From NCBI GenBank assembly GCA_918797485.1, contig CAKKNE010000001.1, forward strand, positions 3,286,001-3,350,000: 64,000 nucleotides of DNA. The letters run 5' to 3'. Both the position numbers and the translations under genes were made by a program. This stretch comes from Pelagomonas calceolata. Its lineage: Eukaryota. The notes under the pieces are model-generated. The model saw only the letters and a program-made list of their open reading frames with translations, was not told the DNA's origin and ran no database searches. Shown piece by piece: positions 11,604 to 14,986 of this stretch (position 1 is its first letter; every line of letters starts with the position of its first letter).

Positions 11604-12584
11604 TTAAAACGCCGGCCGCCCCGCCCCGAAGGGATACAAGGGATGCGCGATATCGCGCGGCGACCCGTCCGCGCTCAAAGGACCGCCCCAGCCGTTCCGG
11701 CAGTCCTTGTTGAGCGCGTCGACCTTCGCAATGTCCTCGGCGGAGAGCTCGAACTTGACCTCGCGGTTCTGCAGGACCCGCGCCGGCGTCACGGACTTCG
11801 GGATGACGACCAAGCCGCGCGACGCCAGCCAGCAGATCGCCACCTGGGCCGAGGACTTTCCGTACTTTTCGCCGATTTCCTTGAGGACAGGGTTCCCGAC
11901 GACCGTAGAACCGTCAATGACCGCGCCAGTCCCGAGCGGCGAGTAGGCCGTCACCACGATGTTCCGGGCTTGGCAGAACGCGACAAGAGGTTGTTGAGAA
12001 TGATACGGATGGATCTCGACCTGCAAAACCGCGGGCTGGATGCGCGCACCGTCACAAATACCGGCAATCTGCTCGGAGTTGAAGTTCGACAGGCCGATGC
12101 TCCTCGTGAGGCCCGCGTCCACACACTGTTCCAGGGCCGCCCACGTCTTCTGGGACGGCGTCGCCAGGTCATATTTTATAGACCCATCATCATTCTTCGG
12201 GATCGACCGATTCCCCTCGCTCTCCTTGGCGAAGCACTGGGGCCAGTGGATCAGATACAAATCGAGGTAGTCCAGCCGTAATTCCTTGAGCGTGACTTCG
12301 AGGGCCGGGCGCACGTTCTCTGGTGAATGCTCCGAGTTCCACAATTTGGACGTCACGAAGAGGTCTTCTCGTTTGACTAAACCCGAAGCGAAGGCCTCCG
12401 CAAACACGGCGCCGATCTCGGCCTCGTTGCCGTAGATAGCGGCGCAGTCGATGTGGCGGTAGCCTCCTTCCAAAGCTGCTTTGACGGCGGCGCCGACCTG
12501 GCCGGCGGGCGCCTGCCACGTGCCCAGGCCGATGACGGGCATGGCCTGGCCGGAGTTGAGCGTCAGGGTGGCGTCTTGGGCCAT
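11604..12584 (-). CDS. Aldo-keto reductase (AKR1-like)
   Basis: GLGTW, GYRHIDCAAIYGNE, LDYLDLYLIHWP, IGLSNF and IPKS motifs. Confidence 0.95.
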   Translation of the reverse strand: MAQDATLTLNSGQAMPVIGLGTWQAPAGQVGAAVKAALEGGYRHIDCAAIYGNEAEIGAVFAEAFASGLVKREDLFVTSKLWNSEHSPENVRPALEVTLKELRLDYLDLYLIHWPQCFAKESEGNRSIPKNDDGSIKYDLATPSQKTWAALEQCVDAGLTRSIGLSNFNSEQIAGICDGARIQPAVLQVEIHPYHSQQPLVAFCQARNIVVTAYSPLGTGAVIDGSTVVGNPVLKEIGEKYGKSSAQVAICWLASRGLVVIPKSVTPARVLQNREVKFELSAEDIAKVDALNKDCRNGWGGPLSADGSPRDIAHPLYPFGAGRPAF

Positions 12585-12595
12585 GGGAGTGCGGG

Positions 12596-12670
12596 GCGCG
12601 TCGATGGCGTCTTGCGTTGAGTGCTGTCTGCGTGCGCGTCGATGGCGTCTTTGCGTGAGTGCTGTCCGTG
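12596..12670. repeat. 38-bp tandem duplication containing the GCGTCGATGGCGT intron/introner motif
   Basis: Two near-identical units starting at 12596 and 12634, immediately upstream of the AKR start. Confidence 0.8.
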
Positions 12671-12738
12671 ATCAAGAGCTTCTGGCGTGCTAGTTACGCT
12701 GAGTTTAGGCCCGGAAAGAGCGCTGAAAAAAGAAATTA

Positions 12739-12762
12739 GCTAGCGTCTTGTAAGACACTAGC
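12739..12762. promoter_or_regulatory. Recurrent upstream motif GCTAGC-N5-GTAAGACACTAGC (representative copy)
   Basis: Close copies at 2360, 6568, 31324, 39662 and 63439; degenerate copies at 1367, 28191, 51128 and 59847. All lie upstream of gene starts. Confidence 0.7.
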
Positions 12763-12971
12763 AAAAAATGCCACGACTGGCCGCCGCTGCAACGTACGAG
12801 CCTGTACGCACCTATAAGTGCGTGCAGGGCGTGGAGCGTTGGCCACCGGCGTGCGAAGGTCGCGCTGAGGCAGTCGCGCCGCACCAAACCGCCCGGCGGG
12901 GGCAGCAGTAGCCGCACAGACAAGGAGGCCGCTGAGGCTGCCGCGTCGCGGGGAAGCAACAGCACCCAAAA

Positions 12972-14021
12972 ATGCCGAACTGACGCTCCTGACACGGCTC
13001 GGCGTGTCGCGTCGCGCCCGCGCCGGCGACGCCGCAGCGCCGGGGCAGCTCCTTCGACGATGCGTCTGCCGGGCTGCCCCACGACGCCGACACGTGGACG
13101 GTCGACGAGGTCGGAGGATTTCTCGCGCGGCTCGGCGCGTCGGAGGCGCTTGTCCGGCACTTCGCCGCGGAGTGCATCGACGGCGAAGCTTTGCTCTTGC
13201 TGACGGAAACACACCTGGACAAATATTTTGAAGCCGAATCCGCTCTGGGCCTGCGCCTCAAGCTCCTGAAGGGCATCGACCGGGCCAAGCACCACCGCCA
13301 CGACGGCATCCTGAGTCCCATGTCGCAGATGCTCGGCGCCGGCTTAGCTACCGCGGGCGCCGTCGCCGGGGCGGCGGCGGTCGTGGCCTTCGGCAGCGAT
13401 GGGAACGCGCCCGACTGGCAAGTGAAAGGCTTCAAGCAGGCGCGGGACGTCGTGACCGGCGTCGCCGTCGGCTACGAGTCCATTCTGCTCGTGGGAGGTG
13501 TCTTTGTGTCGTGGATTCCCCCGGGAGCGCATCTCATCGTGCTGCTGCCGGTCGTCTTTGGTCTAGCGTTTGAGGTGTTGGTTTACTTTAAGACCTGACC
13601 CCCCTCGGGTAAGAAGGGCGGCCAATGCAAGGGCAAGTCGCAGAAGGAACATGACGCGCTGCTGGAAACGGCGACGAGCGATCCGCGCCTCGCGTACAAC
13701 TACGCGCAGACGGAGGACGGCGACGCGGACGTAGCCCAAGGACGGAAGGTCCAGGAGCGCACAGTGCGCGTGATGCGGTTTTCGCTCTTCCTGGGGCTTC
13801 TGGTCGTCGCGGGCGTCTTCCTCGGGTTCTTGCTGGGAGGGCTCCTGAAGGATAAAGCGACGCTGATCATCGCGTGCATCATGTTCCCTCTGGCCTTCCT
13901 GTTGGTTCTTATGCTGAACCTCAAATACGCGCTCGGCGTGAGCAAAGACGACCAGGCTGACTTCGACAAGCTCTACCGCGCGACCGACGCGGAAGCGCCC
14001 GCGCCGGCCGCGGAACCCTAG
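12972..14021 (+). CDS. Candidate selenoprotein: SAM domain plus multi-pass membrane protein with 3 in-frame UGA (codons 4, 7, 209)
   Basis: AAAAATG at 12972 opens a single frame to TAG 14019-14021, interrupted only by TGA at 12981, 12990 and 13596. SAM domain WTVDEVGGFL...FAAECIDGEALLLLT...LGLRLKLLKGI lies upstream of any alternative ATG. Hydrophobic helices occur on both sides of the third TGA, and a SECIS-like hairpin follows the stop. Confidence 0.75.
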
Positions 14022-14023
14022 GC

Positions 14024-14098
14024 GAGTCGTTTCATCCGCGCCATGACGGCGCGCGAGGGTGCTAGCCCCTCGCGCGCCCGACCTGCGGTTCACGACTC
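14024..14098 (+). promoter_or_regulatory. SECIS-like element in 3' UTR
   Basis: Basal stems GAGTCGT/ACGACTC and CCGCG/TGCGG; core ATGAC (14043-47) opposite CGAC (14079-82); perfect 12-bp helix GGCGCGCGAGGG/CCCTCGCGCGCC; loop TGCTAGC. Confidence 0.7.
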
Positions 14099-14203
14099 GA
14101 CGTGTACATGTAACAGTTGTGCTTAAACATATCCCTGGCTCGAAGCCTAAGCGCGGGGCCAGGGATTGGCCAGGGGCGTAGAGAGGCGACATCGAGAGAA
14201 CAC

Positions 14204-14986
14204 TTACCCCGGCTCCTCCAGATCGGACACGTCCTCCTCGGCCTCGTCGATCGTCAGCGACCGGTCCTTTGAGGAAGGGCTACCTTCAATCGCACCACCG
14301 TCATCAATATCCGGGTTCCGGCGGCCCGCGAACTGGCCATATAAAATAGGAAACTCCGCCTCGAGGGCCGCCGTCTCGGCCTTGAGCCGCCGCCGCCGCT
14401 CCCGTCGTAAAGTGGCCGACACGGTGTGCCGCGCGTCGAGCGCTTCCAGCCCCCGCATGGCGCGCTTTCGCGTCTTCACCATCTCGGCCTCGTCTCCAAC
14501 TAACTCATCGAGCACGACGACAAAGTCCCGCCTGGCAGATTCGGGGTCGCCCTTGGCCGCGAGCGTCTCCGCGATCTGCAATCTCGTTGAAAGAGTCCGG
14601 TGGTGGCTTCTCCCTAACCCTTCGGCATACAGCGCGAGCGCGACCCTTATGGTATCGAGAGCCACATCAAAGACCTTGGGCCTGCCTTCTGCCGCGTCTT
14701 TGAGGACCTCGCCGGCCTTGGCCAACGCCAAAGCCGTAGCCAGCGGGTCGTCCTTCTGGGCGAGCGCCGTGAGTGTGCGCTGGAGGACGGCCTTCGCCGA
14801 CGGGTGCACCACCCTTTGGACGACGCTGCTCTCCAGGAGTTCCGCGACGAAGGCCGCCGCGCCTCGGTACGTCTCGCGGTCGCCGATGCTGGAGCAGGTA
14901 TCATAATTGGAGGGTAAACTCCCGTCGACGTCCCACGGCGGCACCGCGTCATCTGTTAATGTCGCGAGCTGGTCCGGCGACAGCAT
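14204..14986 (-). CDS. Hypothetical protein with TPR-like helices
   Basis: EGLGRSHHRTLSTRLQIAETLAAKGD resembles a kinesin-light-chain-type TPR. The 3' end could be spliced (GTAAG at the stop). Confidence 0.55.
   Translation of the reverse strand: MLSPDQLATLTDDAVPPWDVDGSLPSNYDTCSSIGDRETYRGAAAFVAELLESSVVQRVVHPSAKAVLQRTLTALAQKDDPLATALALAKAGEVLKDAAEGRPKVFDVALDTIRVALALYAEGLGRSHHRTLSTRLQIAETLAAKGDPESARRDFVVVLDELVGDEAEMVKTRKRAMRGLEALDARHTVSATLRRERRRRLKAETAALEAEFPILYGQFAGRRNPDIDDGGAIEGSPSSKDRSLTIDEAEEDVSDLEEPG

What the first reader, a model, noticed from the sequence alone, without database searches (positions are those of the whole stretch)
12972..14098. Hidden three-UGA candidate selenoprotein: UxxU + SAM domain + membrane helices, with an adjacent SECIS
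Seen in sequence: the ORF track shows only fragments (13191-13598, 13764-14021), but these share one frame that starts at AAAAATG 12972 and ends at TAG 14021 (349 codons). Its only interruptions are three TGAs: MPN-U-RS-U-HGSAC (codons 4 and 7) and YFKT-U-PPSGKK (codon 209, just after a TM helix). Most of the SAM domain has no usable ATG unless the first two TGAs are read through. No frameshift, TAA or TAG lesion occurs. A hairpin with the eukaryotic SECIS core starts 3 nt after the stop. Established: UGA plus a 3'-UTR SECIS encodes selenocysteine, and pelagophytes have very large selenoproteomes. Inference: I know of no selenoprotein family with a SAM domain and multi-pass membrane architecture. 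A UxxU pair on an oligomerising membrane scaffold could be a redox or metal sensor. Novelty is unverified.
Basis: partly seen in the sequence, partly recalled or inferred. Interest (0 to 1): 0.95.

Follow-up and report, generated by a model that had tools for sequence, protein, structure and literature searches.

The report
New SAM-domain membrane selenoprotein family
A transcribed, unspliced gene of the ocean alga Pelagomonas keeps three in-frame UGA 'stop' codons and a SECIS-like hairpin across related strains, so it likely encodes a selenium-containing membrane protein of a family missing from the selenoprotein lists I could read.

Summary
Observation confirmed. ATG 12972 to TAG 14021 is one 349-codon frame broken only by TGA at codons 4, 7 and 209. 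RNA reads show one unspliced, unedited + strand transcript. In nine metagenomic relatives TGA4 and TGA7 are kept in 6 of 6 and TGA209 in 8 of 8, with dN/dS 0.04-0.13 on both sides of the TGAs. The hairpin has the UGA/GA core and a 12-bp helix but no apical AA, and Rfam misses it. The public Pelagomonas calceolata model (CAH0365350.1) removes all three TGAs with two introns that the reads do not show. Distant homologues (26-52% identical) end at the column of codon 209, and no Cys or read-through form was found, which suggests an old Sec-only family (their stop codons were not seen). The N-terminal pair is not a thioredoxin-type UxxU: it is predicted disordered and reads UxxxU in 2 of 7 copies. 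It is not MSP or an Ostreococcus hypothetical selenoprotein. The Aureococcus lists could not be read. Sec incorporation and function are untested.

The parts
12835..12971 (+). 5' UTR (start approximate; contigs begin at 12775 and 12861); no ATG between 12771 and 12971
12972..14021 (+). 349-codon reading frame, intronless, three in-frame TGA, ends TAG
12981..13007 (+). N-terminal cluster U4-x2(3)-U7-H8-x3(4)-C12 in a predicted disordered tail (pLDDT about 40)
   Evidence: both TGA kept in 6 of 6 loci
13083..13298 (+). SAM domain, residues about 38-109
   Evidence: Pfam PF07647; VIA Z 10.0, rmsd 1.6, 68 aligned to 8y76_A
13401..13595 (+). Family core: G144-N145-x3-W149-Q150, predicted TM1 with invariant E169, short loop, predicted TM2 with invariant H187 and P193
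13596..13598 (+). TGA209, likely the family-defining selenocysteine, directly after TM2
   Evidence: kept in 8 of 8 loci; 74 of 82 stored core-bearing proteins end at this column
13626..13628 (+). Cys219 (C-K-G), candidate partner of U209
   Evidence: kept in loci and in distant C-halves P0018, P0022, P0060
13764..13934 (+). Predicted TM3 (about 265-292) and TM4 (about 296-321)
   Evidence: hydropathy; models
14023..14099 (+). SECIS-like element: lower stem, AUGAC/CGAC core (14043-14047 with 14079-14082), 12-bp upper helix, 7-nt loop without AA
12794..13048 (+). Intron of the public gene model that removes TGA4 and TGA7; not supported by the reads
13554..13616 (+). Intron of the public gene model that removes TGA209 and most of TM2; not supported
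   Evidence: read depth 50-90 across it with no joint; acceptor AG lost in 4 of 8 loci

Best explanation
This is an intact, transcribed Pelagomonas gene whose three UGA codons are likely read as selenocysteine with the help of a non-canonical 3' SECIS, giving a 349-residue protein with a SAM domain and four predicted membrane helices that most likely acts as a membrane-anchored thiol/selenol redox switch. Shown: open frame, unspliced mRNA, conserved TGAs, purifying selection, SAM fold, conserved hairpin core. Inferred: SBP2/eEFSec read the hairpin despite the missing apical AA. Inferred: with four TM helices and short outer loops, the SAM domain, U4/U7/C12, U209 and C219 all face the cytosol. 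Inferred: U209 at the membrane surface is the working residue and cycles with C219 as a selenenylsulfide. Inferred: SAM-SAM contacts cluster the subunits. Inferred: the flexible N-terminal Sec pair is an accessory arm that re-reduces U209 or binds a soft metal, and it also makes synthesis depend strongly on selenium. I put Sec recoding at about 0.87 and this specific redox mechanism at about 0.35.
For: Transcript: stranded poly(A) reads from two runs of one sample cover the gene on the + strand with no joint, no indel and no changed letter at a TGA; two contigs (RNA by guess) span 12861-14100 and 12775-14058 without gaps. Conservation: TGA4 and TGA7 in 6 of 6 loci, TGA209 in 8 of 8, while only 32 of 75 and 10 of 43 four-fold sites are invariant in the same sets. 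Selection: dN/dS 0.11 (codons 1-34), 0.10 (SAM), 0.04 (106-208), 0.05 (210-223, before any Met) and 0.13 (210-349). Indels: 12 of 12 pairwise gaps in codons 1-43 are multiples of three, against 6 of 34 in the 5' UTR; one 3-nt indel lies between the two TGAs. Homologues: 74 of 82 stored core-bearing proteins (13 distinct tails; core identities between representatives down to 18%) end exactly 22 residues after H187, and separate C-halves at 42-46% identity begin just before C-K-G. SECIS: UGA/GA core, G at position 1 and a 12-bp helix fit the consensus of PMC2647825; the core is kept in 6 of 6 sequences, and L002 and L004 rebuild the lower stem from a different sequence. The related pelagophyte Aureococcus has 59-82 selenoprotein genes (PMC6627142, PMC7539508).
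Against: No direct evidence of Sec. The hairpin lacks apical AA/CC, has CGAC instead of KGAW, and Rfam does not match it; covariation is not above shuffles (206 of 500). No Cys-containing homologue was found, so the usual Sec/Cys check is missing. The stop codons of the distant homologues were not seen as DNA, and no C-half was found for the most distant ones. Read depth is low over the first two TGAs (mean 6.8 and 1.0, against 45 and 24 from 13170) and drops about fourfold after 13968, so shorter transcripts are possible. L008 has a 1-nt insertion just after TGA209 (1 of 8). The nine loci are close, syntenic relatives (81-92% DNA identity), not independent lineages. The Sec machinery of this genome could not be checked. 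The models are weak outside the SAM domain (mean pLDDT 65 and 68), and an Ala/Gly-rich stretch at 120-142 could be a fifth helix that would flip the topology.
Confidence: 0.85

Rival explanations
1. Only UGA209 is Sec. ATG-CCN-ARC-TGA is a tiny upstream ORF, and the protein starts at a non-AUG codon or from a shorter transcript.
For: Low read depth over codons 1-40 and a step up near 13100-13170. The distant homologues, as called, show no aligned N-terminal Cys pair, although gene callers would start behind any UGA.
Against: TGA7 is as conserved as TGA4 (6 of 6), the indel between them is 3 nt, codons 8-34 have dN/dS 0.10 and all 12 gaps keep the frame. A start at Met117 would lose the SAM domain, which is under selection.
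Confidence: 0.08
2. The UGAs are read through by leaky termination with ordinary amino acids (all three sit in a UGA-C context), and the hairpin has another role.
For: UGA-C is a weak terminator (recalled). The hairpin lacks the apical AA and Rfam misses it.
Against: Three successive leaky events would give very little protein. The conserved kink-turn core at SECIS spacing would be unexplained. Neighbouring genes use TGG for Trp and TGA ends 11 of 41 long ORFs, so the code is not generally reassigned.
Confidence: 0.04
3. The public model is right: two introns remove the TGAs and give a 311-residue ordinary SAM protein.
For: CAH0365350.1 / UniRef100_A0A8J2WTY3 has GT-AG introns at 12794-13048 and 13554-13616.
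Against: No joint in 590 and 498 laid reads, with depth 50-90 across the second intron; both contigs are gapless. The acceptor AG is lost in 4 of 8 loci, and 3 of 5 loci with 300 nt upstream have no ATG there. The second 'intron' encodes conserved TM2.
Confidence: 0.02
4. Pseudogene, or two separate genes that meet at codon 209.
For: All homologues in the protein collections are called as halves. L008 is frameshifted after TGA209.
Against: dN/dS is far below 1 throughout, including codons 210-223, which lie 45 or more codons before the next Met. One transcript contig spans both halves.
Confidence: 0.01

Closest known systems
Eukaryotic selenoprotein genes with a 3'-UTR SECIS (consensus in PMC2647825, PMC3753652)
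   Same: In-frame UGA, downstream kink-turn core UGA/GA, helix 2 of 11-16 bp, lower stem, distance from the last UGA (about 445 nt) above the 51-111 nt minimum.
   Different: No apical AA or CC; CGAC instead of KGAW; no Rfam match; no Cys homologue found.
MSP, membrane selenoprotein of Ostreococcus, Chlamydomonas, Volvox, Dictyostelium (PMC2375036, supplement 2)
   Same: Multi-pass membrane protein of unknown function, nearly always in Sec form (PMC7539508). The Dictyostelium copy has an extra Sec in its N-terminal tail.
   Different: MSP has G-S/A-U-C-W-P in its first hydrophobic stretch and is 176-232 residues long in the printed alignment. That motif is absent here, and I saw no counterpart of the GNxxxWQ core in the alignment by eye.
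UxxU selenoproteins: SELENOL (recalled) and UxxU-type SELENOW (PMC7539508)
   Same: Two Sec three or four residues apart.
   Different: Those sit in a thioredoxin-like fold. Here the pair is in a predicted disordered tail, its spacing varies, and the model has no thioredoxin fold.
SELENOK and SELENOS (features recalled)
   Same: Membrane-anchored selenoproteins with Sec in a flexible cytosolic segment.
   Different: They are single-pass with Sec near the C-terminus. This protein has four predicted helices, an internal Sec and a SAM domain.
SAM-domain membrane proteins (sphingomyelin synthase SAM 2d8c, BAR SAM 1v85) and four-helix membrane folds (sarcospan-like chain 9c3c_n, synaptophysin-complex chain 9bra_s, pannexin, connexin, CD20)
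   Same: SAM fold (Z 7.8-10.0); four-helix bundle (Z 8-10, rmsd 4-6.5).
   Different: The bundle scores are in the range that unrelated helical bundles reach, with 5-12% identity. No sequence match in the PDB. None is a known selenoprotein (recalled).

Membership tests
Eukaryotic selenoprotein gene | In-frame UGA retained in the mature mRNA | tested here: met
   no joint and no change at the three TGAs; depth at TGA4/TGA7 is low
Eukaryotic selenoprotein gene | UGA conserved, with purifying selection on both sides | tested here: met
Eukaryotic selenoprotein gene | Homologues with Cys at the UGA position | tested here: inconclusive
   none found; three of these score only about 8000 candidates; Sec-only families exist (PMC7539508)
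Eukaryotic selenoprotein gene | Selenium incorporated at the UGA; tRNA-Sec, eEFSec and SBP2 in the genome | not testable with these tools
   no genome held; no tRNA gene in the window
Eukaryotic SECIS | Invariant UGA/GA core with a purine 5' of it | tested here: met
   AUGAC...CGAC; kept in 6 of 6 sequences
Eukaryotic SECIS | Helix 2 of 11-16 bp and a lower helix 1 | tested here: met
   12 bp; lower stem in all five sequences folded; covariation not significant
Eukaryotic SECIS | Unpaired AA (or CC) in the apical loop, and KGAW on the 3' strand | tested here: not met
   loop UGCUAGC, 3' strand CGAC; L002 and L004 have ACCGAA in the loop; Rfam no hit
MSP (membrane selenoprotein) | G-S/A-U-C-W-P motif | tested here: not met
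Ostreococcus hypothetical selenoproteins 1-3, UGSC proteins | GCUG or KPCUGR C-termini, GLUN, UGSC motifs | tested here: not met
   motif search only; the UGSC motif is taken from the family name
UxxU thioredoxin-fold selenoproteins (SELENOL, SELENOW, SymSEP-like) | Fixed two-residue spacing at the start of a helix in a thioredoxin fold | tested here: not met
   UxxxU in 2 of 7; region predicted disordered, model almost all helical; no thioredoxin Pfam hit
SAM domain proteins | Five-helix SAM fold, Pfam SAM profile | tested here: met
SAM domain proteins | Self-association through SAM | not tested
   no complex prediction was obtained
Pannexin/connexin/tetraspan-type four-helix membrane proteins | Fold and sequence homology of the membrane bundle | tested here: inconclusive
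   Z 8-10, rmsd 4-6.5, not above unrelated bundles; Foldseek no E <= 0.001
Aureococcus anophagefferens selenoprotein set (Gobler 2011, 2013) and the 42 algal families of Jiang 2020 | Listed as a family or a hypothetical member | tested here: inconclusive
   Jiang main text has 0 occurrences of 'SAM' or 'sterile alpha'; its supplement and figures and both Gobler papers could not be read

The most novel reading that the evidence does not exclude
An old, Sec-only family of SAM plus four-helix membrane selenoproteins is spread over several eukaryotic microbial lineages and has been missed because it has no Cys homologues, its SECIS lacks the apical AA, and gene callers split it or splice the UGA out. 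In Pelagomonas it has gained an N-terminal Sec pair that gates its synthesis on selenium. It would be a signalling-type, oligomerising membrane selenoprotein outside the thioredoxin-fold enzymes.
Probability: 0.5. Interest if true: 0.88.

Novelty: new variant of a known kind. Interest (0 to 1): 0.78.

Why it matters
New eukaryotic selenoprotein families are rare (three in a survey of 137 algae, PMC7539508), and about half of the algal families are thioredoxin-like. A SAM-domain membrane selenoprotein would extend selenium biology towards membrane signalling or gating. A working SECIS without apical AA would show a blind spot of AA/CC pattern searches and imply more hidden selenoproteins in marine algae. 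The case also shows a public gene model with two introns that the RNA reads do not support and that remove exactly the three UGAs, which is a testable signature for finding others.

Tried and rejected
Rfam at E <= 10: no SECIS family, 3 chance hits. Hairpin covariation: not above shuffles. A conserved stem-loop just behind TGA7 (Sec redefinition element): z from -2.0 to +0.2 in 7 sequences, structures differ; rejected. General reassignment of UGA: rejected (I dropped the TPR row, whose coordinates were out of frame). Internal duplication of the two helix pairs: hhalign probability 0.4. PDB sequence searches with both halves: nothing significant. Fold searches of the membrane part: only generic bundles. 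Viral and prokaryotic collections: no relative, apart from one unrelated tandem-SAM stretch (L010). Read-through or Cys homologues: none. No protein-atlas search and no SAM-SAM complex prediction were obtained. Literature searches listed no paper on a SAM-domain selenoprotein or on a Pelagomonas selenoproteome. Earlier notes of this scan: none on this sequence, on P0046 or in this genome.

Full report
Observation. The frame from ATG 12972 to TAG 14021 gives 349 residues with TGA only at codons 4, 7 and 209. Pfam finds a SAM domain at 40-105, and the predicted model matches solved SAM domains (Z 10.0, rmsd 1.6, 68 residues). The next in-frame ATG is codon 117, so the SAM domain can be made from an AUG only by passing the first two TGAs. 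Hydropathy and two models indicate four membrane helices at about 157-179, 186-208, 265-292 and 296-321, plus a doubtful Ala/Gly-rich stretch at 120-142. The neighbours are a divergent aldo-keto reductase gene and a convergent TPR-like gene.

Organism and public annotation. A cluster look-up returned CAH0365350.1 of Pelagomonas calceolata, a 311-residue 'SAM domain-containing protein'. It matches the window letter for letter apart from two introns, 12794-13048 and 13554-13616, which remove all three TGAs. I therefore take the window to be P. calceolata (inference). No whole genome was available.

Transcript. In two stranded poly(A) runs of one sample (about 6% of each read), 590 and 498 reads were laid on 12500-14500. 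The gene's reads have the opposite orientation to those of both minus-strand neighbours. No joint, indel or changed letter at a TGA is listed. Depth is 50-90 across the second annotated intron and 14-16 or about 4 inside the first. Two contigs from other runs (RNA by guess) span 12861-14100 and 12775-14058 without gaps. Against my reading, depth over codons 1-20 is only 6.8 and 1.0, and it falls about fourfold after 13968. Both dips are in bins of 72-75% GC, but other bins of similar GC are well covered, so shorter transcripts are not excluded.

Close relatives. Nine metagenomic loci (81-92% DNA identity; syntenic) keep TGA4 and TGA7 in 6 of 6 and TGA209 in 8 of 8 that cover them. Four are complete, with three TGAs and one terminal stop. 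L008 has a 1-nt insertion six bases after TGA209; I left its downstream part out of the counts. Four-fold sites are invariant in only 32 of 75 and 10 of 43 columns in the same sets, so three neutral codons would all stay unchanged with a probability near 1e-4 (my arithmetic). Nei-Gojobori dN/dS over all pairs, which are not independent, is 0.11 for codons 1-34, 0.10 for SAM, 0.04 for 106-208, 0.05 for 210-223 and 0.13 for 210-349. Codons 210-267 contain no Met, so their conservation implies read-through of TGA209. All 12 pairwise gaps in codons 1-43 are multiples of three, against 6 of 34 in the 5' UTR. One of them lies between the two TGAs and gives UxxxU in L001 and L009. The annotated acceptor of intron 2 is lost in 4 of 8 loci, and 3 of 5 loci with 300 upstream bases have no ATG there.

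Distant homologues. The search of 1.84 billion representatives gave 37 hits, among them SAM-plus-two-helix proteins at 26-52% identity and separate C-halves at 42-46%. The core has invariant G144, N145, W149, Q150, E169, H187 and P193 in 9 of 9 aligned sequences. Of 82 stored proteins with this core, 74 end exactly 22 residues after the His, at the column of codon 208. The rest are six without the His motif, the read-through protein itself and the intron-based model. Many of the 74 are near-duplicates: there are 13 distinct tails in about eight deep groups. One is from EukProt; the taxa are otherwise unknown. Real C-termini would hardly keep an exact length at this divergence, so a conserved UGA is the likeliest cause, but I could not see their DNA. 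The distant C-halves begin just before a conserved C-K-G (C219); their linkage to N-halves is not shown. No read-through or Cys form appeared.

The hairpin. It folds at -46.5 kcal/mol (z -5.2), with AUGAC/CGAC, a 12-bp helix and a lower stem. It is the only hit of the strict scan in the window. The core is kept in 6 of 6 sequences, and L002 and L004 form the lower stem from a different sequence. PMC2647825 states that only UGA/GA is invariable and that helix 2 has 11-16 bp with G at position 1; these are met. The apical AA/CC and KGAW are not met, Rfam finds no SECIS, and covariation is not significant. It is a non-canonical SECIS candidate.

Mechanism. The most likely reading is Sec at all three UGAs (about 0.87). 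With four helices and short outer loops, the SAM domain, U4/U7/C12, U209 and C219 would share the cytosolic face. I propose U209 and C219 as the redox pair, SAM as the clustering module and the N-terminal pair as an accessory arm and selenium-dependent gate (about 0.35; all inferred). The invariant E169 and H187 within the helices hint at a ligand or ion site, so a redox-gated channel or enzyme is the main alternative function. The membrane bundle resembles four-helix membrane proteins only at non-specific scores.

Comparison with what is known. MSP and the three Ostreococcus hypothetical selenoproteins, read in supplement 2 of PMC2375036, lack this architecture by eye, and their motifs are absent here. 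SymSEP, PDI_e and AhpC_b are thioredoxin- or AhpC-like. PMC7539508 never mentions SAM. Ten searches found no such family (listed under Tried and rejected). The Aureococcus lists and the Jiang supplement could not be read and may contain it; I put the chance that it is unreported at about 0.7.

Papers seen. PMC7539508: passages, part 2 of 8, sections 9, 11 and 22; no supplement or figures. PMC2375036: passages, supplement 4, supplement 2 part 8 of 8 and search passages. PMC3753652: passages and section 4. PMC2647825: part 1 of 2. PMC6627142, PMC9404770, PMC7435645: passages. Gobler 2011 and 2013: nothing. The features of SELENOK, SELENOS and SELENOL and the leaky UGA-C context are recalled.

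Verdict. A real, mis-annotated gene, very likely a selenoprotein of an uncatalogued architecture with an atypical SECIS. New variant of a known kind; interest 0.78.

Noticed in passing
window 14103-14112 and L002, L004-L007: TGTACATGTA is invariant in 6 of 6 sequences just behind the hairpin, near the 3' ends of this gene and of the convergent TPR-like gene; possibly a 3'-end signal read on both strands.
   Followed up: no
window 12704-12860: The aldo-keto reductase gene and this gene are head to head, with only about 60-130 bases between the transcript starts; the arrangement is kept in the loci that reach it.
   Followed up: partly
proteins P0005, P0006, P0237 (match window 13758-13973): About 70 residues, 59-72% identical to TM3-TM4, sit inside an otherwise unrelated membrane protein; a captured segment or a chimeric assembly. 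No Pfam hit.
   Followed up: partly
L008, six bases after TGA209: A 1-nt insertion that combines the two alleles seen in other loci; an assembly chimera or a broken allele.
   Followed up: no
window 13968: Many RNA fragments begin here in both runs (11 of 43 and 13 of 52), and depth falls fourfold downstream; structure bias or a shorter RNA end.
   Followed up: no
window 13877-13881: About 15% of the reads of one run show adjacent C>T and A>G differences, much rarer in the other run of the same sample; unexplained.
   Followed up: no
L010:2700-3450: An AT-rich giant-virus contig encodes two SAM-like stretches in tandem, unrelated to the membrane core.
   Followed up: no
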